A DNA stretch of 64,000 bases from the human T2T-CHM13v2.0 reference genome, Homo sapiens, in the NCBI RefSeq assembly GCF_009914755.1, contig NC_060930.1. One strand, 5' to 3'. The translations under genes and the position numbers were made by a program. Each line of letters begins with the position of its first letter. The first letter of the stretch is position 1. The notes under the pieces were generated by a model that was not told where the DNA came from, searched no databases, and saw nothing but the letters and a program-made list of their open reading frames with translations. This document shows, piece by piece, positions 1 to 64,000 of the stretch.

Positions 1-935
1 TTAATTTCAAGAATCTCAGTGTAACAAATATGTAGATTGAATAAAAAGATCCACAGAAGAGATGAAAAGTATTTAGAGAAACAGAAGTATTGATGTATTC
101 CTACAGAATTACAGATTAAAAACACTAAATGCAGACCTCGACGAAATAATAATAACCCTGGGGCTGAATAACTGAATATAAATATTCAAAGGGTGTATAT
201 CCAAGAAAAAAAATGTAAGTGATTTAACTGGACATCAGGAGCACAAATAATTGGTAAATACGATTGACTTGCTCATTTTAGTTTGGACAAATTAATCTGA
301 TATATGTCTAGTTAAAACTGGAGACCTTCCTTTCTTCTAGCTTGGTCAGTGCTTAATCACCATAGACATACTACTATGTTCTTGGCTTCGATAAAACTGC
401 TCAGCCTACACAAAATAATTCTCTCCACTAGGCTTTCTTTTCATCTTGCTTTACCAGAAATTTAAATCATTACAATGTGTGAAGAAGGCCTTGCCTAAGG
501 CATTTTCTCTAAAAATGTATCTGATAAAGAAAGTGAATGTGTTATTTAGAAAGGAGAGAAGCATCCTGAGATCTCTTCATAATAGGTGCCCTAATTTGTT
601 CATAGAGGTTTTTAGTTGCCTTCTTAGAAAGGAAAGCAACATAGTTCCGAAGGGAAAAGTTCTGTAGAAATTAATTTCACTGGAAATATGCCTATACTTA
701 GCATTGATAAGCCCTTACCTAGCTGAACAACCTAATTTTGTAGAATTCTGAAGGGCATGCTCAGAAAATAGTTACTGGTTGAAGGACAGTACTCTTAGGG
801 GGAGGAACTTTTCAGAATCCTCACATGTTATATTTTGTTACAAATTTGAAATTTGATTGATGAATCACTTTGTTATTTATGTATCTCAAAGCTAACTCAG
901 TAATCTCCAAAGTGTATTATTTAAAATTCTTAATT

Positions 936-1167
936 CAGGGCTTAGCAATTTACAACCTGAGAGCCAAATCCAGATACTGTCTGTTTTGTAAATACAGTTC
1001 TATTAAAACACATCCATGCTCATTTGTTTATAGATGTCTGTGGCTACTTTTCCTATGCAAATCTGCTATGATGGAGTTAAATAGTTGCAACATAGACCAT
1101 GTGGCCACCAACAATGGCTAAAATATTCACTATCTAGCCTCTTATAGAAGAGGGTTGCCAACTCTTT
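936..1167 (+). mobile_element. MER58A-like hAT-Charlie MITE
   Basis: Starts cagggcttagcaatt and ends gttgccaactct (degenerate TIRs). Internal aaaacacatccatgctcatttgttta...aaaatattcactatctagcc follows the recalled MER58A consensus over about 230 bp. Confidence 0.8.
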
Positions 1168-1209
1168 CTCTAGTTCTTTTGGGATGTATTAATAAGTATT
1201 ACCTGATCA

Positions 1210-1440
<231 letters not shown>

Positions 1441-1645
1441 TGGGAGACATTTTACTTCGTTAAATAACATTAAAGTTTTCTGTAAAATTTCTGAGTCTTT
1501 AACATTTGAATCCTCAATATTCAATGGCTCACAAATTTATTCGAGACCACAAAATCCTTTTTTATGAACTATCTTGAAGTACCTGTTTTCTGTAGAATAT
1601 GCTTAAAGGAACTACAATATTCACTCAATTAAAAGTAATATTAGC

Positions 1646-2219
<574 letters not shown>

Positions 2220-3589
2220 AAAAGTAATATTAATAGATCATCCAATAGGTGACAAACATTAGAGATTTAAAGTTGTATCAGATACTAGCTTTGCCCTTGA
2301 AGAGCTCAGTGATTATTAGGGATTCAAACATTAAACAAATAATTGCAGTGCAGTTCAGGAAGTCCTAACCTAGGATTTACATGCTGATCAGTATTAGTTC
2401 AAAGGAAAGAAAAATCAACTTTCATTAGGGTAGGTGAAAGTTAGAAATCATAAGAAAGGTATAGAGAATATACATGAACCATGTATGCTTTCAAGAATGT
2501 ACAAAAATTTTCCCTGCAGAAAATGTAGAGAATGTCATCCCAGACAAAAGAGACAAATATATCTATAAAAATAAAATTTTTGTTTTGGAAACTACAAGGA
2601 ATTTGCTTTTGAGAAGTCGGCAAGATATTTGGTTCAAGAAGTAGGTAGCTCTCATATCCCTAACCTTGAGCATGTGTGAAGGACCTATGAGAAACAGAAT
2701 TAATGACCAAGATAGAGACATAACATCACATACCATCTGTGTTAGTGCCATACAAAATGATGAAGCAAATCAGTAGTGCTTCCACTTCCCTCCAAAAGCA
2801 AGAGTTTGGAAACTAAAATGAAACATGATATTTAGAGATAACATGGAAAGTTTTCAGTAATAACGTAATTGTAGCTTCATCCCTGAGGCAGTGTTCAACT
2901 TCTCCTTCAGATAACTAATGGGGAAATTCGTTGAAAATATGGATGCCTGCCAGGTAGACAGGGGAATTTTGACTTTAAAAAAAGATTGCAGATTTCATGG
3001 AGGAGAGCTATTCCCAATCTGCCTGACAAGGAATAATACAAATTTCCACAGTGTTAGCCTGACTATATTTGGAAACTCAACCAATAAAAATGCCTGGCAC
3101 AGAGATTGGCATGATCCATAGATAGATTTGGAAAAAAAAATCAATAAAATTTTAAAAGATGCTTTGGAAACCACAGATAAACTATAGGCCAACAGACCCC
3201 TGGTAAATAGTTGGCTATTAGTATACATAGCTTTTTATGTTTCACGATGGTGACAGGGCCTCTGGTAAAGGCTGCTGTGGAAAAGATCTAGAAACATTAA
3301 CAAATATATTTTCTGTTCATAATTTTCAAATTCTGCCTGAATTTTCTGCCTTACCATTTTTCTCTTCAATTCCATTGCTTTTTCTCCAGATAACCTTTCT
3401 ATCTGTCTCTGAGTCCTAAGGAATCCACTCCTTGGCTTTTCCAACTTTGTCTTGTTTACACAGCCTCTGACTCTGCAATAGTAACTACACTGAGATGATA
3501 AGGTGTCTCTGATATGAAACTTCTCAACCTTTTTCTCTTTTATCTAAAAATGTCTATAGATCCATACCAGTTTTCTCTTCTTTCCCTTC

Positions 3590-4180
3590 TTCTTTCTTAA
3601 AAGAAAAAAGTGTCCTCACTCCTTTCCAAGCTAGCCTTTTAACATGTTATTTTTGATCCCATTTGAGCTCCCAGAACTTGCCTCATAACTTTTCTCTTTT
3701 TTCATCACCCTCAATCTTGTCTTCATGTTGGCTTCTTTCTTCATCTGCAAATACACTAAAGGTTCTCCAATTCTAGGTAGATTTTTCCTCAAATCTGCCT
3801 TTCAACCTCTTCCCTTTTCATTCCTCTGAACACCCATAGGAGTAATTCTCCCTCGATTCCTCTATTCAACATTGCTCACTTTCACCTTACCCTTAGTCTA
3901 GGTTTTAATCTTATACGGCTTCCATAACACTCCTCTTTAAAATAACCAGTAATGTCATTGCCTAGTCTAAGAGTTTTGACTGTTTCCTTATCATGCTTTA
4001 TCAGAAGCAGTTGACAATATTAAATGGAGCCTCCTTCATGAGATTTACCTCCTCTGTCTCCAGCGACTTTGAAACTCCTTCTGTTTCTTTTCCTACTCCT
4101 TCTCTCACCAAGTACATCATGTGTTTCTCAAAGTTCTGTTCTTCCCTCTTTCCTCTTCTCTGTATTTTTATAATCCTTTT
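3590..4180 (+). mobile_element. L2 LINE fragment (ancient)
   Basis: Pyrimidine-rich stretch resembling the L2 RT region (aataaccagtaatgtcattgcctagtctaa...tcagaagcagttgacaatatt...ctccttc). Boundaries approximate. Confidence 0.6.
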
Positions 4181-4329
4181 GTAAGCCTTTATTCTCTCAC
4201 ACTGGGCTATCATAGAAACACCCAAATTGGACATGGTGCTGTTCTCTCATTTCTCCCAATCATTCTTTAAACTGGCCCAATGACTATTTCATTAAAACAA
4301 ATGTCAGATCATCACAGCAAAAATAAGAA

Positions 4330-4532
4330 CACTTAAAATCTGTATAGAGCTGTATCATTTTCCAAGCACTTTTATTATTAGTGAATGGATAATATTCACT
4401 GTCCTGTCAGTATTATTCTAATACATTTCTGAGCTAATATATTAAGGCACTGAGTAAGTAAATGACTTTCCCAGGGTCACACCATTTATGAAGGGCTGCA
4501 ATCGTATTTGAACTTGTCACCTTTGACTTCCT
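4330..4532 (-). mobile_element. MIR SINE fragment
   Basis: aaggcactgagtaagtaaatgactttcccagggtcacac...atttgaactt...tgacttcc resembles the MIR core in reverse. Confidence 0.6.
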
Positions 4533-5379
4533 AATATTAGGCAGCTGCTTTCATGTCACTCCCCTTTTACCGAAACCATCCCTGAATTTGGAGTATGTGG
4601 TTTCTTATCCAGTGCCCCCTACCTTTCCATCTAATCTCCCACTATATGTAGTAGAATATGTAAAATGCTAAAAGAACACATCACAAAGTGTAAGTGCTAC
4701 ATGGTACATAAAGTTTATTACTATTTCTATTTTCATCTTTCTCACTTTGCCATGTGCTTCCCCAATTCATATCTCTGCTCATACCTTTCCTTTCTTTTCT
4801 CTCTTTACTTTCCGAATCCATGTAAAAGATTCTAATGGATTATCTAAAGGCCCCCATATTAAATGCATTGCTCCTCTAACAGTTCTGCTATCACATGTGC
4901 TTCATTCTGTTTGTATATCTTCCCCAGGAGACTCAGGCCTATTGATGTAAGTGTTATCATCCCTATTTTATAAGTTCATACCTAGTCTTAGAAAGCCTAC
5001 GCAGTTTGGCTTCTCAAAAGGTGAGTGAGTTAGACTCAGTCAAGTTCCCCAACTGGAAATAATCCAATTTTTACAAGGCAAAATGGAGAAGACTGTTACA
5101 TAAATAGATGTAAATAATCTTTTATGTCAATCCCAGACACATCTTTATTTTCAACATGTGACAATGCAGTGATTGCTATTAATATGTACCCTTTTCTTGT
5201 TTAATATCTTCAATTAAAAAAATCATGGTTGTTCATATTTATTTAGGGCTCTTATTTTCACATCTTTTGTTCTTTGGAGCATCCTAATTTATACATCTAA
5301 GATAAACTCATTATGGTGAAGATTAAAAAAATTTAATAAGATTATGATTCTAAATATGCAACACTCTCATTGTTGACTT

Positions 5380-5730
5380 TTTGGACTATGTAAAAAGTCA
5401 AAAAAAATTCTCACCTATTCATACCTTCCAGAAGATAATAATTCTTAACAATTTAATGTATTAGCATCCTGTTTTTCATTTACACATAACAAAAATGAAA
5501 TGATTGCAGATACAATTTTGTACATTATTTCATTCACCTAATATGATATATGTCCTCATGCCTTTAATTATTTCATAAACACCATTTTAATGCCCTCAGA
5601 GCACCTCATCATCGATGTATCAAATTTTATTTAATCATTTTTAAAATTTGGGTGTTTTATATTACTGTCCGTTGTTACTATCACAAATAATGTTGTGATG
5701 AATTTTTTGTACATAAATCTTTATTTGTTC
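5380..5730 (-). mobile_element. Ancient L1M (L1ME-like) 3' fragment
   Basis: ttactatcacaaataatgttgtgatgaattttttgtacataaatc and upstream motifs match old L1 ORF2-end/3'UTR in reverse. Confidence 0.55.
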
Positions 5731-6923
5731 TTCAGAGTATAGAATTATACAATCTTGAGTTCATACTTTGATTCTGCCTTTTTTTACAACTTTACTTCAA
5801 ATCATAGGTCCTATAAGTCACTAGAGTATTGAATGGGAACCCTTAAGAATAAAAGCATTTGAGAACATAAAACAGCAGACTAGGTAATCCACTTTGTCAG
5901 TAGAAAGGCTGAAAAATTTTATAAATCAGATACCATGAGGGTGCCAAAAAAAGAGCACTAGTGACCCAGGTGGAAGTTCCTGTTTACAGTAGATCTACAC
6001 ATGTTCTGTACCTGTCATCATAAAATTGAATTTGTCTGGATGGTTTGTTGAGATGGGCAAAAAAGAGTTTCTGTAATGCTCTGTTTTTAAGTAGAAAGTT
6101 TCTTTGTTATAACCTATGGAATAAAACGATTGTCCTTAAAACTCTAAATCTTGCAAATCTGGTTTTACATGTTTGTTTTAAGAAATTGAATTTACCCACT
6201 ATATGTTTGTTATAGCAAATTGTATTTATTAGGATATGTTTGCTGTAGAAAATTGAATTTACTTCCCTAAGTCATAATATACACATCAGCACAGTAATGA
6301 TGAACTAACTCACTGTCTGTGCCATCACTAATTTTATTCGGTAACTTTAGCAAATGGCATGAATTCACTGAGAATCATAATCTTCTGCGTTTGCTTTCTT
6401 CTACATGACTTTTTGAGAAAAATTAATTAGAATAACAACAACTTCACTCTTAAAGAATACACAAAAATTTTTTTACATCAAGATCCACTTCTAAAAACTG
6501 GATTCAAAGGAAAATGTTACCAAATTTCAAGGATCTTTATACATTTTACAAAAGATATTTATATAAAAACTCATTTATTCAACAGATTCATATTAAGCAT
6601 TGATTATTCCGAATGCTAAACAGGGATACAGTCCACGATGAAAAATAAATGGGTCCAAAGTCATAGTCCCAGTGATGATGAATGAGGGTACTCAAGGTAC
6701 TATGCCTTTCCCAGTACTGAGTATCATTACTTTAAATCTTGATGGTTTTATTTGCCAAATAAAGCATACCATTTTATTAATTTGCTTAACTGTTACTAAA
6801 ACTGATGTTAAAATTCTCCTTATATCTATTTCCCTTTTCATTTACTCATTTTTCTTCTGGGATTTTTCATTTAATTTAGTCATGGGTGTGCATTATATTA
6901 AGGCAAATATAATTTTGTATCAA

Positions 6924-25144: not shown

Positions 25145-25902
25145 TTAAAGTAACTTTTTAACTTTATTATTATTATTATTTATACTTTAAGTTCTGGGTT
25201 ACATGTGCAGAAGGTGCAGTTTTGTTACATAAGTATACACATGCCATGCTGGTTTGCTGCACCCATCAGCCTGTCACCTACATTCGGTATTCTCCCAATG
25301 TTATTCCTCCCCTAGCCCCACACACCCTGCAGGCCCTGGTGTGTAATGTTCCTCTCCCTATGTCCATGTGTTCTCGTTGTTCAACTCCCACTTACAAATG
25401 AGAACATGTGGTGTTTGGTTTTCTGATCTTGTGATACTTGGCTGAGAATGATGGTTTCCACCTTAATCCATGTCCCTGCAAAGGACATGAACTCATCTTT
25501 TTTATGGCTGCATAGTATTCCATGGTGTATATGAGCCACATTTTCTTAATCCAGTCTATCATTGATGAACATTTTGGTTGGTTCCAAATCTTTGCTATTG
25601 TGAATAGTGCTGCAATAAACAAACATGTGCATGTGTCTTTATTGTAGAATGACTTATAATCCTTTGGGTATATGCCCAGTAATGGGATTGCTGGGTCATA
25701 TGGTATTTCTAGTTCTAGATCCCTGAGGAATCGCTACACTGTCTTCTACAATGGTTGAACTAATTTACACTCCCACCAACAGTATAAAAGTGTTCCTATT
25801 TTTCCACAACCTCTCCAGCATCTGTTGTTTCCTGACTTTTTAATGATCGCCATTCTAACTGGTGTGAGATGGTATCTCATTGTAGTTTTGATTTGCATTT
25901 CT

Positions 25903-28061
25903 TTATTTTGAGCCTATGTATGTCTCTGCACATAAGATGGTTCTCCTGAATACAGCACACTGATGGGTCTTGACTATCCGATTTACCAGTCTGTGTCTTT
26001 TAATTGGGATATTTAGCCCATTTACTTTTAAGGTTAATATTGTTATGTGTGAATTTGATACTGTCATTATGATGTTAGCTGGTTATTTTGCCCGTTGATT
26101 GATGCCGTTTCTTCATAGCATCAATGGTCTTTATGATTTGGCATGTTTTTGCCATGGCTGGTACCAGTTGTTCCCTCCCATGTTTAGTGCTTCCTTCAGG
26201 AGCTCTTGTAAGGCAGGCCTGGTGGTGACAAAATCACTCAGCATTTCCTTGTCTGTAAAGGATTTTATTTCTTCTTCACTGATGAGGCTTAGTTTGGCTG
26301 GATATGAAATTCTGGGTTGAAAATTCTTTTCTTTAAAAATGTTGAATATTGGCCCCCACTCTCTTATGCCGAGAGATCCGCTGTTAGTCTGATGGGCTTC
26401 CCTTTGTGGGTAACCCGACCTTTCTCTCTGGCTGCCCTTAATAGTTTTTCCTTCATTTCAACCTTAGTGAATTTGACAATTATGTGTTTTGGGGTTGCTC
26501 TTCTCGAGGAGTATCTTTGTGGTGTTCTCTGTATTTCCTGAATTTGAATGTTGGCCTGCCTTGCTAGGTTGGGGAAGTTCTCCTGGATAATATCCCAAAG
26601 AGTGTTTTCCAACTTGGTTCCATTCTCCCCGTCACTTTCCAGTACACCAATCATAGATTTGGTCTGTTCACATAGTCCCATAATTCTTGGAGGCTTTGTT
26701 AATTTCTTTCCACTCTTTTTTCTCTAATCTTGTCTTCTAGCTTTATTTCATTAATTTGATCTTCAGTCACTGATATCTTTTCTTCCACTTGATTGAATCA
26801 GCTACTGAAGCTTGTGCATGCATCACGAAGTTCTCGTGCTGTGGTTTTCAGCTATTTATCACGTTTGTGATAAATTGACCTTGTTATTTTGAGATATGTT
26901 CCACCAATACTTAGTTTATTGAGAGTTTTTAGCATGAAGTTTCAGGTCATTTAAGGTCTTCTCTACACTCCTTATTCTAGTTAGACTTCATCTAACCTTT
27001 TTTCAAAGTTTTTAGCTTCCTTGCAATGGGTTAGAACATGCTCCTTTAGCTCGGAGAAGTTCGTTACTACTGACCTTCTGAGGCCTACTTTTGTCAACTC
27101 GTCAGACTCATTTTCCATTCAGTTTTGTTCCATTGCTGGCGAGGAGCTGCAATCCTTTGGAGGAGAAGAGCCACTCTGGTTTTTGGAAGTTTCAGCTTTT
27201 CTGCTCTGGTTTCTCCCTATCTTTGTGGTTTTATCTACCTTTGGTCTTTGAAGTTGGTGACCTACAGATGGGGTATTGGTGTGGATGTCCTTTTTGTTGA
27301 TGTTGATGCTATTACTTTCTGTTTGTTAGTTTTCCTTCTAACAGTCAGGCCCCTCAGCTGCAGGTCTGTTGGAATCTGCTGGAGGTCCACACCAGATTCT
27401 CTTCACCTGGGTATCACCAGCAGAGGCTGCAGAACAGCAAATATTGCAGAACAGCAAATATTGCTGCCTGATCCTTCCTCTGGAAGCTTCATCCCAGAGG
27501 GGCACCTGCCTGTATGAGGTGTCTGTCAGCCCCTACTGGGAGGTGTCTCCCAGTCAGGCTACGTGGGGGTCAGGGACCCACTTGAGGAGGCAATCTGTGC
27601 ATTCTCAGAGCTCGAACGCTGTGCTGGGAGAACCACTGCTCTCTTCAGAGCTGTCAGACAGGGACGTTTAAGTCTGCAGAAGTTGTCTGCTGCCCTTTAT
27701 TCAGCTATGCTCTGCCCACAGAGGTGGACTCTAGAGAGGTGGCAGGCCTTGCTGAGCTGTGGTGGGCTCTGCCCAGTTCAAGCTTCCTGGCTGATTTGTT
27801 TACCTACTCAAGCCTCAGCAATGGTGGACGCCACTCCCCACCACCAGGCTGCAGTGTCGCAGGTCGATCTCAGAGTGCTGCACTAGAAATGAGCAAGGCT
27901 CCGTGGGCATGGGACCCTCTGAACCAGGCACAGGAGGGAATCACCTGGTCTGCTGGTTGCTAAGACTCAGTTGGAAATGCAGAAATCACCCATCTTCTGC
28001 ATCAATCTCGCTGGGAGCTACAGACCAGAGCTGTTACTATTTGGCCATCTTGGAAGAAACC
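25903..28061 (-). mobile_element. L1 element B: L1PA6/7-like 5'UTR, ORF1 and about 130 nt of ORF2; 3'-truncated, inserted in A
   Basis: Perfect 14-bp TSD tgatttgcatttct (25889-25902 / 28062-28075). ORF1 peptide at 26364-26681. No poly(A). Confidence 0.9.
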
Positions 28062-31000
28062 TGATTTGCATTTCTCTAACAACCAGTGATGATAAGCATT
28101 TTTTCATATGTCTGTTGGCTGCATAAATGTCTTCTTTTGAGAAGTGTCTGTTCATATCCTTTGCCCATTTTTTGATGGGGCTGTTTGCTTTTTTCTTGTA
28201 AATTTGTTTAACTTCTTTGTACACTCTGAATATTAGTCCTTTGTCAGATGGGTAGATTGCAAAAATTTTCTCCCATTCTGTAGGTTGTCTGTTCACTCTG
28301 ATGATAGTTTCTTTTGCTGTGCAGAAGCTCTTTAGTTTAATTAGATCACATTTGTCCATTTTGGCTTTTGTTCCCATTGCTTTTGGTGTTTTAGACATGA
28401 AGTCTTTGCCCATGCCTATGTTCTGAATGATATTGCCCAGGTTTCCAGGTTTTCTTCTAGGATTTTTATGGTCCTAGGTCTTACTATTAAGTCTTTGATC
28501 CTTCTTGAGTTGATTTTTGCATAAGGTGTAAGGAAGGAATCCAGTTTCAGTTTTCTGCATATAGCTAGCCAGTTTTCCCAGCACCATTTATTAAATAGGG
28601 AATCCTTTTCCCATTTCTTGTTATTGTCAGGTTTGTCAAAGATCAGATGGTTGTAGATGTGTAGTGTTATTTCTGAGGCCTCTGTTCTGTTCCAGTGGTC
28701 TATATATCTGTTTTGGTACCAGTACCATGCTGTTTTGGTTACGGTAGCATTGTAGTACAGTTGAAGTCAGGTAGTGTGATGCCTCCAGCTTTGTTCTTTT
28801 TGCTTAGGATTGTCTTGGTGATGTGGGCTCTTTTTTGGTTCCATATGAAATTTAAAGTAGTTTATTCCAATTCTGTGAAGAAAATCAGTGGTAACTTGAT
28901 GGGGATAGCACTGAGTTTATAAATTACCTTGGGCAGTATGGCCATTTTCACAATATTGATTCTTCCTATGCATGAGCATGGAATGTTTTTCCATTTGTTT
29001 GTGTCTCCTCTTATTTCCTTGAGCAGTGGTTTGTAGTTCTCCTTGAAGAGGTCCTTCACATCCCTTGTAAGTTGGATTCCTAGGTATTTTTTTCTCTTTA
29101 TAGCAATTAATGGGAGTTCACTCATGAATTGGCTCTTTGTTTGTCTGTTATTGGTATATAGGAATGCTTCTGATTTTTGCACATTAATTTTGTATCCTGA
29201 GACTGTGTTGAAGTTGCTTATCAGCTTAAGGAGACTTGGGGCTGAGATGATAGGGTTTCCTAAATACACAATCATGTCATCTACAGAGACTTCCTCTCTT
29301 CCTATTGTAATACCTTTTATTTCTTTCTCTTGCCTGATTGCCCTGGCCAGAACTTCCAATACTATGTTGCACAGGAGTAGTGAGAGAGGGCATCCTTGTC
29401 CTGTGCTGGTTCTCAAAGGGAATGCTTCCAGATTTTGCCCATACAGTATGATGTTGGCTATACGCTTGTGATAAATAGCCCATGTTATTTTGAGATATGT
29501 TCCACCAATACTTAGTTTATTGAGAGTTTTTAGCATGAAGGGTGTTAAATTTTATCAAAGGCCTTTTCTGCATCTATTGAAATAATCATGTGGTTTTTGT
29601 CATTAGTTCTGTTTATGTGATAGTTTATGTTTATTGATTTGCATAAGTTGAACCAGCCTTGCATCCCAGGGATGAAGCTAACTTGATCATGGTGAATAAG
29701 CTTTTTGATATGCTACTGGATTCAGTTTGCCAGCATTTTATTGAAGATTTTTGCATGGATGTTCATCAGGGATATTGGCCTGAAATTTTATTTGTTGTGT
29801 CTCTGCCAGGCTTTGGAATCAGGATAACGCTGGCCTCAAAAAATGAGTTAGGGAGGAGTCCCTCTTTTTCTATTGTTTTGAATAGTTTCAGAAGGAATGG
29901 TACCAGCTCTTCTTTGTACCTCTGGTAGAATTTGGCTGTGAATCCATCTGGTCTTGGATTTTTTCTTTCTTTTTTTTTTTTTTTTGGTTGGCAGGATTTA
30001 AATTACTGCCTCAATTTCAGACCTTGTTATTGGTCTATTCAGGGATTCTACTTCTTCCTGTGGTGTATGTGTCCAGGAAGTTACCTATTTCTTCTAAATT
30101 TTCTAGTTTATTTGCGTAGAGGTATTTATAGTATTCTCTAATGGTAGTCTGTATTTCTATGGGATCAGTGGTGATATCCCCTTTATCAATTTTTATTGTG
30201 TCTATTTGATTCTTCCCTCTTTTCTTCTTTATTAGTCTGGCTAGCGGTCTGTCTATTTAGTTAATCTTTTCAAAAACCAGCTCCCTGATTCACTGATTTT
30301 TGAAAAGTTCTTCATGTCTCTGTCTCTTTCAGTTGTGCTCTGATCTTAGTTATTTCTTGTCTTCTACGAGCTTTTAAATTTGTTTGCTCTTGAGGGTGGA
30401 GCCAAGATTGCCGAAGAGGAGCAGCTCCAGTCTACAGCTCCCAGCGTGAGTGACGCAGAAGATGGGTGATTTCTGCATTTCCAACTGAGGTAGCGGGTTC
30501 ATCTCACTGGGGAGTGCCAGACAGTGGGTGCAGGACAGTGGGTGCAGTGAACTGAGCATGAGCCGAAGCAGGGCGAGGCATTGCCTCACCCAGGAAGTGC
30601 AAGGGGTCAGGGAATTCTCTTTCCTAGTCAAAGAAAGGGGTGACAGACGGCACCTGGAAAATCAGGTCACTCCCACCCTAATACTGCACTTTTCCAACAG
30701 GCTTAACAAACGGCACACCAGGAGATTACATGCCGCACCTAGCTTGGAGGGTCCTACACACACGGAGCCTCGCTCATTGCTAGCACAGCAGTCTGAGATC
30801 AAACCGCAAGGCTGCAGCGAGGCTGGGGGAGGGGCGCCCGCCATTGCCAAGGCTTGAGTAGGTAAAGAAAGTGGCAGGGAAGCTCAAACTGGGTGGAGCC
30901 CACCACAGCTCAAAGAGGCGTGCCTGCCTCTGTAGGCTCCACCTCTGGGGGCAGGGCACAGACAAACAAAAGGCAGCAGTAACCTCTGCAGACTTAAATG

Positions 31001-31419
31001 TCCCTGTCTGACAGCTTTGAAGAGAGTAGTGGTTCTCCCAGCACGCAGCTTGAGATCTGAAAACAGGCAGACTGCCTCCTCAAGTGGGTCCCTGACCCCG
31101 ATGTAGCCTAACTGGGAGGCACCCCCCAGTAGGGGCAGATTGACACCTCACACAGCCGGGTACTCCTCTGAGACAAAACTTCCAGAGGAATGATCAGGCA
31201 GCAGCATTTGTGGTTCACCAATATCCGCTGTTCTTCAGCCTCTGCTGCTGATACCCAGGCACACGGGGTCTGGAGTGGACTTCAAGCAAACTCCAACAGA
31301 CCTGCAGCTGAGGGTCCTGAATGTTAGAAGGAAAACTAACAAACAGAAAGGACATCCACACCAAAAACCCCTCTGTACGTCACCATCATCAAAGACCAAA
31401 GGTAGATAAAACCACAAAG

Positions 31420-32434
31420 ATGGGGAAAAAACAGAGCAGAAAAACCAGAAACTGTAAAAATCAGAGTGCCTCTCTTCCTCCAAAGGAATGCAGCTCCTCA
31501 CCACAACGGAACAAAGTTGGACAGAGAATGACTTTGACAAGTTGACAAAAGATGGCTTCAGAAGATCAAACAAATCTGAGCTAAAGGAAGAAGTTTGAAC
31601 CAATGGCAAAGAAGTTAAAAACCTTGAAAAAAATTAGATGAAAGGCTAACTAGAATAACCAATGCAGAGAAGTCCTTAAAGGAGCTGATGGAGCTGCAAA
31701 CCATGGCATGAGAAGTACGTGATGAATGCACAAGCCTCAGTAGCTTATGCGATCAACTGGAAGACAGGATATCAGCGATGGAAGACGAAATGAATGAAAT
31801 GAAGTGAGAAGAGAAGTTTACAGAAAAAAAGAATAAAAAGAAATGAACAAAGCCTCCAAGAAATACGGGACTATGTGAAAAGACCAAATCTACGTCTGAT
31901 TGGTGTACCTGAAAGTGACGGGGAGAATGGAACCAGTTGGAAAATACTCTGCAGGATATTATGCAGGAGAACTTCCCCAATCTAGCAAGGCAGGCCAACA
32001 TTCAAATTCAGGAAATACAGAGAATGCCACAAAGATACTCCTCAAGAAGAGCAACTCCAAGACACATAATTGTCAGATTCACCAAAGTTGAAATGAAGGA
32101 AAAAATATTAAGGGCAGCCAGAGAGAAAGGTCGGGTTACCCACAAAGGGAAGCCCATCAGACTAACAGCTGATCTCTTGGCAGACACTGTACAAGCCAGA
32201 AGAGAGTGGGGGCCAATATTCAACATTCTTCAAGAAAAGAATTTTCAACCCAGAATTTCATATCCAACCAAACTAAGCTTCAGAACTGAAGGAGAAATAA
32301 AATCCTTTACAGACAAACAAATGCTGAGAGATTTTGTCACCACCAGGCCTGCCCTAAAAGAGCTCCTGAAGGAAGCACTAAACATGGAAAGGAACAACCA
32401 GTACCAGTCACTGCAAAAACATGCCAAATTGTAA
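31420..32434 (+). pseudogene. L1 ORF1p (element C), disrupted
   Basis: ATG at 31420 (MGKKQSRK). N-terminal half broken by frameshifts and stops; C-terminal 165 aa open (31937-32434, ARREWG, YPTKLSF). Confidence 0.92.
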
Positions 32435-32497
32435 AGACCATCGAGGCTAGGAAGAAACTGCATCAACCAACAAGCAAAATAACCAGCTAACACCATA

Positions 32498-36310
<3,813 letters not shown>

Positions 36311-39300
36311 GAACGATGAGAATACATGGACACAGGAAGGGGAAGAACACACACCGGGGAATGTTGTGGGGTGGGGGGAGGGGGGAGAGATAGCATTAGG
36401 AGATATACCTAATGCTAAATGACGAGTTAACGAGTGCAGCACACCAACATGGCACATGTATACATATGTAACAAACCTACATGTCGTGCACATGTACCTT
36501 AAAACTTAAAGTATAATAATAAAAAAAAAATTTGTTTGCTCTGGCTTCTCTAGTTCTTTTAATTGTGATATTATGGTGTCGACTTTGATCTTTCCCACTT
36601 TCTGAGGTGGGTATTTACTGCTGTAAATCTCCTTCTAAACACTGCTTTAGCTGTGTCCCACAGATTCTGGTACATTGTCTCTTTGTTCTCATTGGTTTCA
36701 AAGAACTTCGTTATTTCTGCCTAATTTTGTTATTTACCCAGTAGTCATTCAGGAGCAGGTTGTTCAGTTTCCATGTAGTTGTGCAGTTTTGAGTGAGTTT
36801 CTTAATTCTGAGTTCTAATTTGATTGCTCTGTGGTCTGAGAGGCTGTTATGATTTACGTTCTTTTGCATTTGCTGAGGAGTGTTTTACTTCCAATTATGT
36901 GGTCGATTTTAGAATAAGTGCTATGTGGTGCTGAGAAGAGTGTATATTCTGTTGATTTGGGATGGAGAGTTCTGTAGATGTCTGTTAGGTCCACTTGGTC
37001 CAGAGCTGAGCTGAAGTCCTGAATATCCTTGTTAATTTTCTGTCTTGTTTATCTAATATTAACAGTGGGGTGTTCAAATCCCCCACTATTATTGTGCGGA
37101 AGTGTAAGTCTCTCTGTAGGTCTCTAAAAACTTGTTTTATGAATCTGGGTACTCCTGTATTGGGTGCATATATATTTAGGATAGTTAGCTCTTCTTGTTC
37201 CATTGATCCCTTTACCATTATGTAATACCCTTCTTTGTCTTTTTTGATTTTTGTTGGTTTAAAGTCTGGTTTATCAGAGACTAGGATTGCAACCCTTGCT
37301 TTTTTTCCTTTCCATTTGCTTGGTAAATATTCTTCTATCCCTTTATTTTGAGCCTATGTGTGTCTTTGCATATGAGATGGGTCTCCTGATACAGCACACC
37401 AATGGGTCTAGACTCTTTATCCAATTTGCCAGTCTATGTCTTCTAATTGGGGCATTTAGCCCATTAACACTTAAGGTTAATACGGTTATGTGTGAAATTG
37501 ATCCTGTCATCATGATTCTGGCTGGTTATTTTGCACATTAGTTGATGCAGTTTCTTCATAGCATCATTGTTCTTTGTATTTTGGTGTGGTTTTGCAGTGG
37601 CTTGTACTGGTTTTTCCTTTCCACATTTAGTGCTTCCTTCAGGAGCTCTTGTAAGGCAGGCCTGGTGGTGACAAAATATCTCACCATTTGCTTGTCTGTA
37701 AAGGATTTTATTTCTCCTTCACTTATGAAGCTTGGTTTGGCTGGATATGAAATTCTGGGCTGAAACTTCTTTTCTTGAAGAATGTTGAATATTGGCCCCC
37801 ACTCTCTTCTGGCTTACAGGGTTTCTGCCGAAAGATCCACTGTTAGTCTGATGGGCTTCCCTTTATAAGTAACCTGACCTTTCTCTCTGGCTGTCCTTAA
37901 CATTTTTTCCATCATTTCAACCTTAGAGAATCTGATAATTACATGTCTTCTGGTTGCTCTTCTTGAGGAGTATCTTAGTGGTGTTCTCTGTATTTCCTGA
38001 ATTTGAATGTTGGCCTGTCTTGCTAGCCTGGGAAGTTTTCCTGGATAATATCCCGAAGTGTGTTTTCCAACTTGGTTCCATTCTCCCCATCACTTTCAGG
38101 GACCCTAATCAATTGTAGGTTTCGTCTTTTCACGTAGTCCCATATTTCTCAGAGGCTTTGTTTATTCCCTTTCATTCGTTTTTCTCTAATCTTGCCTTCA
38201 CGCCTTATTTCAGTAGTTGATCTTCATCTCTGATATCCTTTCTTCTGCTTGATAGATTTGGCTATTGATACTTGTGTATGCTTCATGAAGTTCTCATGCT
38301 GTGTTTTTCACCTCCATTAGGTCACTTATGTTCTTTTCTAAACTGGCATTTTAGTTTGCAGTTCCTGTAACCTTTTATCAAGGTTCTTAGCTTCCTTGCA
38401 TTGGGTTAGAACATGCTCCTTTAGCTCAGAGGAGTTTGTTATTACCCCCTTCTGAAGTCTACTTCTGTCAGTTCATCAAACTTATTCTCCATCCAGTTTT
38501 GTGCCCTTGCTGGAGAGGAGTTGCAATCATTTGGAGGAGAAGAGGCACTCTGGTTTTTGGATTTTTCAGCATTTTTGCTTTGATTTTTCCTTTGATTTTT
38601 CCTCATCTTCTTGGATTTACCTACCTTTGATCCTTGAGACTGATGACCTTTGGATGGGGTTTTTGCGTGAGGGTCCTTTTTGTTGATGTTGATGTTATTG
38701 CTTTCTGTTTGTTAGTTTTTCTTCTAACAGTCAGTTCCCTCTTCTGCAGGTCTGCTGCAGTTTGCTAGAGGTTCACCCCAGACCCTATTTGCCTGGGTAT
38801 CACCAGTAGAGGCTGTAGAACAGCAAAAATTGCTGCCTGCTCCCTTCCTCTGGAAGCTTCATCCCAGAGGGGCACTGTCCTGATGTCTGCCAGAGGTCTC
38901 CTGAATGGGCGGTCTCTCCTAGTCAGGAGGCACTGAGGTTGGGGACCCACTTGAGGTGGCAGTCTGTCCCTTAGCAGAGCTCGAGTGCCGTGCTCGGAGA
39001 ACATTCTTTGTCAGGATCTGCTGCTCTCTTCAGAGCTGGCAGGTAGGAAAGGTTGAGTCTGCTGAAGCTATGCCCACAGCCATCCCTTCCCTCAGGTGCT
39101 CTGTCCCAGGGAGATGGGAGTTTTATCTATAAGTCCCTGACTGGGGCTGCTGCTTTTCTTTCAGAGATGCCATGCCCAGTGAAGAGGAATCTAGAGAGGC
39201 AGTCTGGCCACAACCACTTTGCCACACTGTGTCAAGCTCTGCCCAGTCCAAACTTCCAGGCCTCCTTAGCACTATCAGGGGAAAACCATCTACTCGAGCC

Positions 39301-40277
39301 TCAGTAATGGCAGATGCCACTCCCTCCACCAAGCTCAATCATCCGAGGTCAACTTCAGACTGCTGTACTGGCAGGGAGAATTTCAAGCCAGTGGTTCTTA
39401 GCTTGCTGGGCTCCATGGTAGTGGGACCCACTGAGCGAGACCAGTTAGCTCCCTGGCTTCAACCCCTTTTCCAGGGGAGTGAATGGTTCTGTCTCGCTGG
39501 GATTCCAGGTGCCACTGTGGTATGGGGGGATAAAAAAACTCCTGCAGCTAGCTCAGTGTCTGCCCAAAAGGCCACCCAGTTTTGTGCTTGAAATCCAGGG
39601 CCCTGGTGGTGTAGGAACCTGAGGGAATCTCCTGGTCTGCAGACTGCAAAAACCACAGGAAAATTATAGTATCTGGGCCAGATAGCACAGTCCCTCACAG
39701 CTTCCCTTGGCTGGGGGAGGCCACCCACTTCCTGGGTGAGGTGATGCCCCACGCTGCTTCTGCTCGCCCTCCATGGGCTGTACCCACTGCCTAACCAGTC
39801 CCAATGTGATGAACAGGGTACCTCAGTTGGAAATGCAGAAATCACCTGACTACTGTGTTGGTCTCACTGGGAGTTACAGACCGGTGCTGTTCCTATTTGG
39901 CCATGTTGCCAGATCCCCCTGATCTTTTTCAGCTTTTTTACTTTAGAAACTTATTAATTTTTTTAACTTTTGTGTCTTTTGTAATAACACTTAACTTAAA
40001 ACACAAAGACATTGTACAGCTGTACAAAAATATTTTCTTTCTTAATATCCTTATTCTATAAGCTTTTTTGTTTTTAATTTTTTTTTTTACTTTTAAACAT
40101 TTTTGTTAAATATAAGACACAAACGTAAACATTATCCTAGGCATAAACAGGGTCAGAATCTCAATATCACTGTCTTCCACCTCCACATCTTATTGCACTA
40201 GAAAGTCTTCCAGGACAATAACACACACGGAGCTATTATCTCCTATTATAATAATGCCTTCTTCCAGAATACTTCCC

Positions 40278-57426: not shown

Positions 57427-59617
57427 TGTTGCAGGACTTTTCCTTAGTTCAGCTAAAGACAGGGTCCTTGTCTGTCCCATGGCCATGAAAATTTAGGCTT
57501 GCAGATGGTTTGAAGGGTGAGTAAAGCAGGGTTGTATTGGATGAAAAGGAAGAAAAGGGGGAAAAAGGGACTCTTGCAAGGCCAGAGTCCCTGCTAGAAC
57601 GCTTCCTGCCTGCAGCTTGAATCCCAGGTTCCACCCAGGAAAAGGAGGGGCCAGGCTCCTCCTGGCTGCAGAGGGTGAGGACTTCCCAAGGCTCCACCCC
57701 AGTGGGCAGGCTGGTGGAAGTTTCTCCAGGGACCCTCCCTTCCACCAGACTATCTCATTCCCCCCTGTAAAGAAGTATGTCTAACTGCCATTAGATTAAG
57801 GATAAGGACAAAGACTGATCTTAACTGCTTCCTGCTGACAGGGGCACAGTTTTGGGGAAATGGTAGTCAGAGCTTTCTCAGAGGCCTATTTAAGGGTTCC
57901 CAGCAGAAAGGGGCATCATCAGAGGCTCCAGTTGCATGAGAGTTTGGAGTTTGATGCCCTGAAGGCAAGAACAGACAAACCAGGTTATTAGAAAACATGT
58001 ATCAAAACGAAACAAGGGGAGGGGTAAGGACAGCTCAAAAATTCCAAGGCCTTTCACAACTTTGCACAAGAGGGAGGCCGAAAGCCCAACTGGTAAAAAA
58101 AAAAAACCTTTACCCTTTTGCCGACATGTTGGGCTTCTGGGTTCCCTTCACCTGAGCCCAATCTTAAGCCAACCAGTTTATGGTTTGGGAAATTAGCGCT
58201 TTCTAGTTTGGAGGATGCATCTGAGGGGAGTGACCTATAGGATGGAGACACAATTACCTAACTGAAGAAAGGAATGAGGAGGAGAAAGAAAAAAAACAAG
58301 GCACTTTTCAAAGGAGTCCCAGGGGTTCAGGTTGCATTCCAAAGGCGTACAGACTGAAGATGAATGGCTACCCATCTAGAAAAAGGGGAGCAGGTATCTC
58401 TGGTTCCCTTCTCTTCCTTGCAGATAATGGGTACATGAGGGAGAGAGGGAGGAGCATCCTCTTTCCCTCTTCTGTCCTTGCATCCCCAAGTCCTGGTGAC
58501 CTTGGCAGGCACTGCCATGGGTGTAAAAGTGGCTTGCACCTATGAAGCAGGGGGGTTTAGGGGGTGGGGTGATAATCATTCACTCTTACCCATGTATGTC
58601 CTATCTCCCATGTTGTCAGTAGCCTTGGAGTTCTCTAGACCTCATTTATCCCATGGATACTAATGTGGCCTTTATCCATAAAACAGGAAGCTTGGGATTG
58701 GCTTAATCAGCAGGAATCAGCCATACTTACCTGCACTGTGCCTTTTAACTTCTGTTGCCTGCCTCTGGATCCCTTAGATACAGTTTTCTTTCCCAGGACT
58801 TTGGCTCAAAGCTTGGAATTGAGTCTGGAACAAAAATGTATCTAAGGGGCATTGCACAGACTCCTTATGATAAGCCAAATGCTAAGGTGAAACTGTGGAA
58901 TTGAGTCCTCCTCCAATAAGGGAGAGAAAATAATGTCTTGTGACACACTGAGATAACTGGTGACTATAGTTACACTTGCTAGGATTTGGGTGCATGGTAC
59001 TTGACTTTAGTTAGCTCCCTTGGTCTTACTTTCCCAAAAAGGAAACCTCCAAGTGATAGGCATCCTATTTATTCCCTATTTATTAAATCACTTGGCAGGA
59101 TTTGCAGGATAATTACTCAGAACTAGAATACTGATCCAGATTTTTACATTACCCATCCCTCTTGTTCTTTCTGAGCTGCAGTCAGAGATTGCTGGTTGGT
59201 TCACAGAAACAAACAGGATTAGTCTTAAATGTAGGTGAAAAGTTAAAAACAACTAGTGAGTTTAGAATTTAGTGACAACTATGTAAGTTTTGAAACATGA
59301 TTTCTCTCTCTCCAGTCCTCATGTTTGTTAAAAAAACAAATCATCATAGGACTGAGTGGTGTGCAAAATAGACTTTTGCCTTTTTCTTTGCTAAAGATTT
59401 TATACGCTAATTTGCATAAAGTGCAGCAAGAATAACTATTTCTATATAGGCCTTTAGGACTGACTTTAATGGAAGTCTGTTCCACAAGGAATCTCATATA
59501 AGACCTTTTAAAGCTGAGCCCACCCATGAGATTATCCTCAAATAACTGTGAGTTGGGTGATCTTAAGATCTCAAGATAAACTTGGAGCTCCTGAACCTGT
59601 TAGAAAGTGACATTCTT
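57427..59617 (-). mobile_element. MER61-like ERV1 provirus: 3' LTR (57427-57757) and internal 3' region (57758-59617)
   Basis: TG...CA-bounded 331-bp LTR (tgttgcaggacttttccttagttcagctaaagac...ctatctca). A polypurine tract aggggggaa lies immediately upstream on the minus strand. The internal region has no recognisable retroviral ORF. Confidence 0.75.

Positions 59618-64000
<4,383 letters not shown>

What the first reader, a model, noticed from the sequence alone, without database searches (positions are those of the whole stretch)
27955..28061. L1 element B appears to be a spliced retrocopy using the +98 donor and an unusual acceptor near +310
Seen: in L1 sense, B reads ...catttccaactgag|tcttagcaaccagc (junction 27966/27965). 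Neighbour C, unspliced, reads ccaactgag|GTagcggg (30490) ... cacttttccaacAG|gcttaacaaac (30700). B therefore lacks exactly a 211-nt GT...AG segment with a pyrimidine tract, starting at L1 position +98/99. A microhomology deletion through ggt would leave ctgaggtctt; only one g is present. Known: this is the conserved L1 5'UTR splice donor used by spliced integrated retrotransposed elements (SpIREs), whose acceptors I recall lying much further 3' (about +620, +790, +975). Inference: B came from a spliced RNA using a proximal acceptor, perhaps created by CpG decay (acgg>acag; D has acgg here). This removes part of the internal promoter.
Basis: partly seen in the sequence, partly recalled or inferred. 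Interest (0 to 1): 0.8.

Follow-up and report, generated by a model that had tools for sequence, protein, structure and literature searches.

The report
Spliced L1 retrocopy, new acceptor class
One old L1 retrotransposon copy in this window lacks exactly an intron-like piece of its leader, as expected if it was copied from a spliced L1 RNA, and about 26 other human copies show the same or a neighbouring splice junction that the main published catalogue of such elements does not list.

Summary
Element B (28061→25903, minus strand) reads CCAACTGAG|TCTTAGCAACC. Unspliced neighbour C has GT at 30490 and AG at 30699-30700, 211 nt apart. B's own closest unspliced relatives read CTGAG|GTACCTGG…TTTTCCCACAG|TCTTAGCAACC. 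So B lacks one 197-198-nt GT…AG block, and the odd "t" is simply its subfamily's base.

B has perfect 14-bp target-site duplications. The same junction occurs in three other independent insertions (chr7, chrX, chr20). In the tree and the AU test, B and the chr7 copy are not sisters.

A second junction, CTGAG|CAAACGG, uses an AG 7 nt downstream (CTTAG|). It occurs in 23 further insertions spread over several successive subfamilies. Their nearest relatives are unspliced.

I read B as a SpIRE (spliced integrated retrotransposed element) made from the known G98U99 donor and a proximal acceptor near +309. Larson et al. 2018 list acceptors 620/788/851/974 only.

B is also 3'-truncated: it ends in an internal AATAAA stretch of ORF2 with no poly(A) tail. 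The 1069 and 3275 copies carrying matching 5'-end sequence give only rough denominators.

Untested: primate orthologues, RNA evidence, and formal subfamily names.

The parts
25903..28061 (-). Element B: L1PA copy, complete at the 5' end, 2159 bp. It carries the 5'UTR deletion and is truncated at the 3' end, at the position equivalent to nt 2278 of element C (early ORF2).
27966..28061 (-). B 'exon 1': the first 96 nt of the 5'UTR, ending ...CCAACTGAG. It is 93-97% identical to unspliced relatives.
27965..27966 (-). Splice-type junction CTGAG|TCTTAGCAACC.
28062..28075 (-). 5' target-site duplication AGAAATGCAAATCA, inside the host L1 'A'.
   Evidence: (host coordinates overlap at 5402-5415)
25889..25902 (-). 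3' target-site duplication AGAAATGCAAATCA. It directly follows B's last bases ...GGCTCAAAATAAA; there is no separate poly(A).
30391..36514 (+). Element C: full-length unspliced comparator with poly(A) and TSD AAATTTGTTTGCTCT.
30490..30700 (+). Intron-equivalent segment in C (GT...AG, 211 nt), preceded by CCAACTGAG and followed by GCTTAACAAACGG.
59616..64000 (+). Element D: unspliced comparator. Donor CCACTGAG|GTACC. Its acceptor region reads TTTTCAAACGGTTGTAG|CAAACAG: CGG at the first site and AG at the second.
25200..25902 (-). Host L1 'A', 3' piece (C coordinates 5402-6107).
28062..30392 (-). Host L1 'A', middle piece (C coordinates 3086-5415), lying between the B and C insertions.
36529..39908 (-). 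Host L1 'A', 5' piece (C coordinates 14-3101).

Best explanation
B is a SpIRE, a spliced integrated retrotransposed element. A source L1 of an older L1PA subfamily was transcribed. The known 5'UTR splice donor (CUGAG|GU, G98U99 in L1.3 numbering) was joined to a proximal 3' splice site: a pyrimidine run CUUUUCCCAC followed by AG, about 200 nt downstream, near +309. The spliced RNA was reverse-transcribed into a nick in an older L1, leaving 14-bp target-site duplications.

In B's subfamily the acceptor AG is not ancestral: the site was CACGG. The source copy must therefore already have carried the CpG-to-CpA change. This step is inferred.

Reverse transcription appears to have started inside ORF2, at the AAAAUAAAG stretch, rather than on a poly(A) tail. 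That gives a 2.16-kb copy that is 5'-complete and 3'-truncated. This step is also inferred.

B belongs to a small recurrent class: 4 copies use this acceptor and 23 use an AG 7 nt further on.
For: - **Boundaries.** B lacks one block beginning GT at the published donor and ending AG after a pyrimidine tract, judged against four unspliced members of its own subfamily and against C.
- **Recurrence at this acceptor.** The same junction is found at chr7:100.93 Mb with unrelated flanks, at chrX:61.69 Mb (full length, poly(A), 13-bp TSD) and at chr20:14.32 Mb. These lie in three different subfamily backgrounds.
- **B and chr7 are not sisters.** The chr7 copy groups with unspliced L018/L026/L029 (SH-aLRT 99). 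Forcing B and chr7 together costs 27.2 lnL (AU p = 0.025). The chr7 copy is not among B's 39 best relatives (88-89% identity). I checked 7 of those 39, and all 7 carry the unspliced acceptor region or unspliced 5'-end spacing.
- **Sibling junction.** CTGAG|CAAACGG gave 22 hits at up to 3 mismatches of a 30-mer (control 0), plus chr4:137.01 Mb. It lies exactly after CTTAG. That is the majority state in unspliced copies (1351 CTTAG against 198 CTTAA), and it is the first AG there because the upstream site is non-AG in 83 of 100 listed copies.
- **These 23 are not one lineage.** They are spread along the subfamily ladder, with unspliced C nested inside. L039's best relatives are 37 loci that do not carry this second junction, at 92-94% identity, 5 of them verified as unspliced. 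Its best match among copies with the same junction is 92.5%.
- **Retrotransposition hallmarks.** B has perfect 14-bp TSDs. TSD plus poly(A) is clear in 4 of 5 other spliced copies examined.
- **The donor is used in B's own subfamily.** A chr4 copy joins it to the CTGCAG|CCTCCACTG acceptor (compare).
Against: - In B's subfamily the acceptor site is ancestrally CGG. An ordinary source RNA would have had no AG there, and B's actual source cannot be inspected.
- The next AG (TCTTAG|CAACC) is constitutive in that subfamily, yet no copy with a CTGAG|CAACC junction was found.
- Donor and acceptor flanks are an imperfect direct repeat (CTGCA-TTTCCAACTGAG / CTGCACTTTTCCCAC-AG). A homology-assisted deletion could mimic this one junction.
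- B has no poly(A) tail.
- The AU p-value of 0.025 is modest.
- No RNA evidence or orthologous loci could be examined.
- One hit of the degenerate junction pattern was a chance match outside any L1 (chr1:24.13 Mb).
Confidence: 0.8

Rival explanations
1. B did not arise from its own splicing event. It is the offspring of an already deleted element: an earlier SpIRE, or a deleted master, that was still transcribed and retrotransposed again.
For: The deletion is small (about 200 nt) and leaves most of the 5'UTR. B and the chr7 copy share the junction and belong to the same 10-row clade. L039's 39 best relatives include 2 other copies with the second junction, where about 0.3 would be expected from 22 of 3275.
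Against: B and chr7 are not sisters. There are only 2 such copies among 1069 copies matching the subfamily's 5' 41-mer. Spliced copies are closer to unspliced copies than to each other. The original deletion would still have to be explained, most simply by splicing.
Confidence: 0.08
2. This is a DNA-level deletion, either at the B locus after insertion or in a source copy, by slippage or recombination between the imperfect direct repeats that flank the segment.
For: The repeats CTGCA-TTTCCAACTGAG and CTGCACTTTTCCCAC-AG flank the lost block. The acceptor AG is not ancestral in B's subfamily, and a deletion needs no AG.
Against: The crossover would have to fall in the last 1-2 nt of the repeat, rather than in its longer identical blocks, and do so identically in four independent copies. 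The 23-copy sibling junction lies 7 nt beyond the repeat, exactly after another AG. The 5' edge is always the known donor.
Confidence: 0.06
3. Reverse transcriptase switched template within the L1 RNA during target-primed reverse transcription and skipped the segment.
For: B's reverse transcription was atypical in any case: an internal 3' start and no poly(A).
Against: A homology-guided jump would copy the downstream repeat first and so keep its version. B keeps the upstream repeat intact. Nothing in this model explains the GT...AG edges or their recurrence.
Confidence: 0.04

Closest known systems
SpIRE97/622 (Larson et al. 2018, PLoS Biol, PMC5860796)
   Same: Same donor (G98U99). Splicing is within the 5'UTR. 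The elements are retrotransposed with TSDs, recur at independent loci, and are a small percentage of 5'-intact copies.
   Different: The acceptor is about 310 nt upstream of A620G621. Only about 200 nt is removed, against 524. The host subfamilies look older: Larson reports no 97/622 copies in L1PA7 or older, and I could not name subfamilies here. In B's family the acceptor AG depends on CpG decay. B itself is 3'-truncated and lacks poly(A).
SpIRE97/790, 97/976 and 97/853 (Belancio 2006/2008 as cited by Larson 2018; Larson 2018)
   Same: Same donor. Acceptor choice changes with sequence changes in the 5'UTR: Larson showed this for the 129-bp deletion, and here single-base gain or loss of an AG has that effect.
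   Different: Those acceptors lie far downstream, and two of those splice classes remove the ORF1 start. The junctions here leave ORF1 and most of the 5'UTR untouched.
129-bp 5'UTR deletion of L1PA3-to-L1PA2 (ZNF93 escape; as described in Larson 2018, section 16)
   Same: An internal 5'UTR deletion in the L1PA lineage.
   Different: That deletion became fixed in a propagating lineage. The deletions here recur sporadically and do not found a lineage.

Membership tests
SpIRE (spliced integrated retrotransposed element) | The internal L1 deletion starts exactly at the 5'UTR splice donor G98U99 (…CUGAG|GU). | tested here: met
   13 of 14 close relatives of B read CTGAG|GT; the 14th is itself spliced.
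SpIRE (spliced integrated retrotransposed element) | The deletion ends directly after an AG preceded by a pyrimidine tract in unspliced relatives. | tested here: inconclusive
   The four relatives aligned, and 44 of 100 listed copies, read TTTTCCCACAG|T. The ancestral state is CACGG, so the AG in B's own source is inferred. For the 23-copy sibling junction the AG (CTTAG|) is the majority state, 1351 against 198.
SpIRE (spliced integrated retrotransposed element) | Hallmarks of target-primed reverse transcription: TSDs, a plausible endonuclease site and a poly(A) tail. | tested here: inconclusive
   B has perfect 14-bp TSDs and a TTCT/C-type nick site, but no poly(A); it ends in internal AAAATAAA. 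The other spliced copies show TSD plus poly(A) in 4 of 5.
SpIRE (spliced integrated retrotransposed element) | The same junction recurs in independent insertions. | tested here: met
   chr7, chrX and chr20 have distinct flanks. A further 23 copies use the neighbouring AG.
SpIRE (spliced integrated retrotransposed element) | The corresponding spliced L1 RNA can be detected (RT-PCR or RNA-seq). | not testable with these tools
SpIRE (spliced integrated retrotransposed element) | The deletion was present at the moment of insertion (orthologous loci never carry the full form). | not testable with these tools
   No other primate genome is held.
Distinct L1 subfamily with a natively shorter 5'UTR | Deleted copies form one clade with their own diagnostic changes and many members. 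| tested here: not met
   Counts are 4 and 23 copies, against 1069 and 3275 copies matching the 5'-end 41-mers.

The most novel reading that the evidence does not exclude
The proximal-acceptor junctions (donor 98 to about +309, 4 copies; to about +316, 23 copies) form an unreported SpIRE class. It would be the second largest in the human genome after 97/622. It spans several successive, mostly older L1PA subfamilies. Within it, the AG that is used tracks single-base gain and loss of AGs by CpG decay in the 5'UTR. A possible further point: a branch-point-like CTAAT is present in C but not in B's subfamily, which may explain why the +316 site was used only later.
Probability: 0.5. Interest if true: 0.45.

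Novelty: new member of a known kind. Interest (0 to 1): 0.4.

Why it matters
SpIREs record how often L1 RNA is spliced in the germline, and how changes in the 5'UTR create or remove splice sites that disable new copies. A further class of about 27 copies, using an acceptor only about 200 nt from the donor, would extend the published catalogue, which was built from four junction probes. It would also show splicing-derived copies in apparently older subfamilies. It gives a concrete case where a single CpG transition switches an acceptor on. None of this changes the known mechanism, and no gene or regulatory element is affected in this window.

Tried and rejected
- **Subfamily-trait idea.** My first idea after one search was that B belongs to a subfamily with a natively short 5'UTR. 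I rejected it: spliced copies are few, scattered along the tree, and closer to unspliced copies than to each other.
- **Degenerate junction pattern.** Of 11 hits, chr1:24.13 Mb is not L1 at all and was dropped. chr1:243.99 Mb (CTGAGGTTTAGCTC) was left unclassified. Five hits are a different junction.
- **CTGAG|CAACC junction in B's subfamily.** None was found.
- **Extra hit chr4:55.66 Mb.** It looks like a mutated unspliced acceptor region and was not counted.
- **Tree rows left out.** L030 and L034 had no anchor, L041 was short, and L021/L023/L024 duplicate L040/L035/L056. Only 14 unspliced rows were available, and only one of them (C) comes from the younger families.
- **Literature not available.** Belancio 2006 and 2008 are not held. 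Whether they mention an acceptor near +310 is therefore unchecked. Belancio 2010 passages and the 2025 bioRxiv passages do not mention one. Searches found no other paper on it.
- **Subfamily names and L1.3 numbering** could not be assigned, because no repeat library is held. The figures '+309/+316' are C coordinates minus 3.
- **The chr7 copy's 3' extent** is unknowable: it abuts a younger antisense L1 with no TSD.

Full report
**What is in the sequence**

On the minus strand, B reads ...TTTCTGCATTTCCAACTGAG|TCTTAGCAACCAGCAGACC, with the junction between 27966 and 27965. Element C on the plus strand reads CCAACTGAG|GTAGCGGG at 30490 and TTTTCCAACAG|GCTTAACAAACGG at 30699-30701, so the extra block in C is 30490-30700, 211 nt. 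BLAST of C against the window aligns B to C 13-100 and C 295-1299 with nothing between.

**The surroundings**

- An old minus-strand L1 ('A', 39908→25200) is split twice.
- The first split is by C, a full-length element with poly(A) and the TSD AAATTTGTTTGCTCT.
- The second split is by B. B runs 28061→25903 and is flanked by a perfect 14-bp duplication, AGAAATGCAAATCA, at 28075-28062 and 25902-25889. B is therefore a discrete insertion.
- B starts within a few bases of the L1 5' end. It stops at C coordinate 2278, in early ORF2, at ...ATAGGCTCAAAATAAA, where intact copies continue GGGAYGGAGG. There is no poly(A).
- The nicked target end (5'-GCATTTCT-3') could pair with AGGGAUG of the RNA. I therefore infer internal priming. 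That step is not shown.

**B's own family**

A search of the window's genome with B's first 182 nt scored 40 of 3928 candidates. Apart from B itself, two groups came back.

- 24 places match B's first 96 nt at 92-97% identity. For 16 of them a second piece about 200 nt further on was also listed. 17 were fetched (L018-L034); 3 turned out to be duplicates of spliced loci, which leaves 14, and 13 of those are unspliced.
- 15 places align straight across the junction.

The unspliced relatives read CCAACTGAG|GTACCTGG and, further on, CTGCACTTTTCCCACAG|TCTTAGCAACC. A global alignment of B to L018, L019, L026 and L029 gives one gap of 197-198 nt. It can be placed as GT...AG, with the 2-nt AG ambiguity that any exon ending in AG has.

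**Recurrence**

- The exact 19-mer junction occurs once more in 3.1 Gb, at chr7:100.93 Mb, with unrelated 5' flank.
- A degenerate 26-mer at up to 3 mismatches gave 11 hits, with 0 for the reversed control.
  - Four are true copies of this junction: B, chr7, chrX:61.69 Mb and chr20:14.32 Mb. The chr20 copy is verified. The chrX copy is full length with poly(A) and a 13-bp TSD.
  - One hit is non-L1 DNA.
  - One is unclear.
  - Five carry a different junction.
- The four copies lie in three sequence backgrounds: TCTTAGCAACC, GCTTAACAAA and CTATCTGAG|GCTTAAAAAA.
- In a maximum-likelihood tree of about 1.1 kb downstream of the acceptor (38 rows), the chr7 copy groups with unspliced L018/L026/L029 (SH-aLRT 99) and excludes B.
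- Holding B and chr7 together costs 27.2 log-likelihood units (AU p = 0.025).
- B's 39 best genomic relatives over 700 nt are 88-89% identical and do not include the chr7 copy. For 7 of them, the acceptor-region or 5'-end hits show that they are unspliced.

**A sibling junction**

Thirteen of the 15 'straight-across' hits read CTGAG|CAAACGGCACACC instead.

- A 30-mer at up to 3 mismatches finds 22 such copies (control 0). A degenerate version adds chr4:137.01 Mb.
- All have different flanks.
- Four of them were extended and are full length; three of the four show clear TSD plus poly(A).
- The junction falls exactly after CTTAG, 7 nt beyond B's acceptor.
- In unspliced copies, CTTAG|CAAAYRGCAC... 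occurs 1351 times and CTTAA... 198 times.
- In those CTTAG copies the upstream site is ATGG 68, ACGG 15, ACAG 16, ATAG 1 among the first 100 listed (hand count). CTTAG is therefore usually the first AG after the pyrimidine run.
- These copies are spread along the whole ladder of the tree, with unspliced C and the chrX copy nested among them.
- For one of them (L039), 37 of the 39 best relatives are loci without this junction, at 92-94% identity, and 5 of those are verified as unspliced. Its best match among copies with the same junction is 92.5%.
- They are therefore repeated events, not a lineage.

**The acceptor in B's family**

- Among the first 100 of 140 copies matching TTTTCCCAYRGTCTTAGCAAC, the site reads CACAG 44, CATGG 45, CACGG 5, CATAG 6 (hand count). 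That symmetry is what decay of an ancestral CpG gives, so typical active sources had CACGG and no AG.
- In the C-like TTAAC group the figures are ATGG 47, ACGG 31, ACAG 21, ATAG 1.
This fits their rarity: 2 copies, against 1069 copies matching the subfamily's 5' 41-mer. It also fits the CACAG seen in all three unspliced sisters of the chr7 copy. It remains an inference.
- A point against the simple model: the constitutive TCTTAG|CAACC of B's subfamily yielded no spliced copy. By contrast there are 22 second-junction copies against 3275 copies matching the later families' 5' 41-mer.
- C has a CTAAT about 20 nt before the AG, where B's relatives have CAAAT. A better branch point in later families is a possible reason. 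This is untested.

**Rivals**

- The flanks of donor and acceptor are an imperfect direct repeat, so a DNA deletion could mimic B's junction. However, the crossover would have to fall in the last 1-2 nt of the repeat in four independent copies, and the 23-copy junction lies outside the repeat, after another AG.
- Descent from a deleted master is disfavoured by the tree, the AU test and the nearest-relative lists.
- A template switch by reverse transcriptase would keep the downstream repeat, not the upstream one.

**Comparison with print**

- Larson et al. 2018 (PMC5860796; sections 7, 11, 16, 17, part 1 of S1 Table and a term search of all eight supplements) searched with junction probes. They list acceptors A620G621, A788G789, A851G852 and A974G975 only. 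They report no 97/622 copies in L1PA7 or older subfamilies, and their supplements list no copy assigned to PA7 or PA8. They state that the donor is conserved in L1PA1-L1PA10.
- I found no paper naming an acceptor near +310 (searches; passages of the 2025 bioRxiv preprint and of Belancio 2010).
- Belancio 2006 and 2008 could not be read.
- This is the known mechanism with a new acceptor class, not a new kind of element.

**Limits**

- No primate orthologues, no RNA data and no repeat library were available.
- Counts from pattern searches are lower bounds for diverged copies.
The tree therefore holds few unspliced rows from the younger families.

Noticed in passing
L030/L061 (G000 chr4:29.85 Mb): This is a tiny retrocopy of about 320 nt from B's subfamily. 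The same donor is joined to CTGCAG|CCTCCACTGGTGATACCCAGG, which looks like the published 97/622 acceptor sequence seen in Larson's S1 Data. The copy ends about 40 nt into ORF1, with no clear poly(A), and has a 13-bp TSD AAA(G/A)TCCAAATTA. Like B, it is spliced and 3'-truncated.
   Followed up: partly
G000 chr5:132249445, chr7:85496108, chr12:58404027, chr2:99594232, chr2:177856255 (L066 holds the chr5 copy): Five copies share another junction, CTGAG|TGTAAACAAAG, which joins the donor position to about C coordinate 466. The chr5 copy is only 69-81% identical to C, so it looks like an older family. I did not determine whether this is a further spliced class, a repeat-mediated deletion (CTGAG / TTGAG) or a native 5'UTR form.
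   Followed up: partly
window 25200-39908: There is a nested L1 pile-up. Old L1 'A' (minus strand) is interrupted by full-length C (plus strand, TSD AAATTTGTTTGCTCT) and by B (minus strand, TSD AGAAATGCAAATCA). Both young insertions landed inside the same old element.
   Followed up: yes
window 30690-30712 (element C): C itself carries the rarer pair of states: AG at the first site (CAACAG) and no AG at the second (CTTAAC). In the tree it is sister to the chrX spliced copy that used the first site (SH-aLRT 93).
   Followed up: partly
window 25903-25917: B ends in the internal AATAAA-containing stretch of ORF2 with no poly(A). The nicked target end can pair with the next RNA bases AGGGAUG (5 Watson-Crick pairs plus 2 G-U pairs), which suggests internal priming of reverse transcription.
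   Followed up: partly
L006+L062 (G000 chr7:100.925-100.935 Mb): The chr7 spliced copy stops at about C coordinate 2590. It directly abuts the 3' end of a younger antisense L1 that shows no TSD. This may be a deletion caused by that later insertion.
   Followed up: no
L038 (G000 chr13:96.26 Mb) and L047 (G000 chr1:226.42 Mb): One copy with the second junction is 5'-truncated at about nt 55 and sits inside another L1. Another has an additional internal gap (C coordinates 472-624).
   Followed up: no
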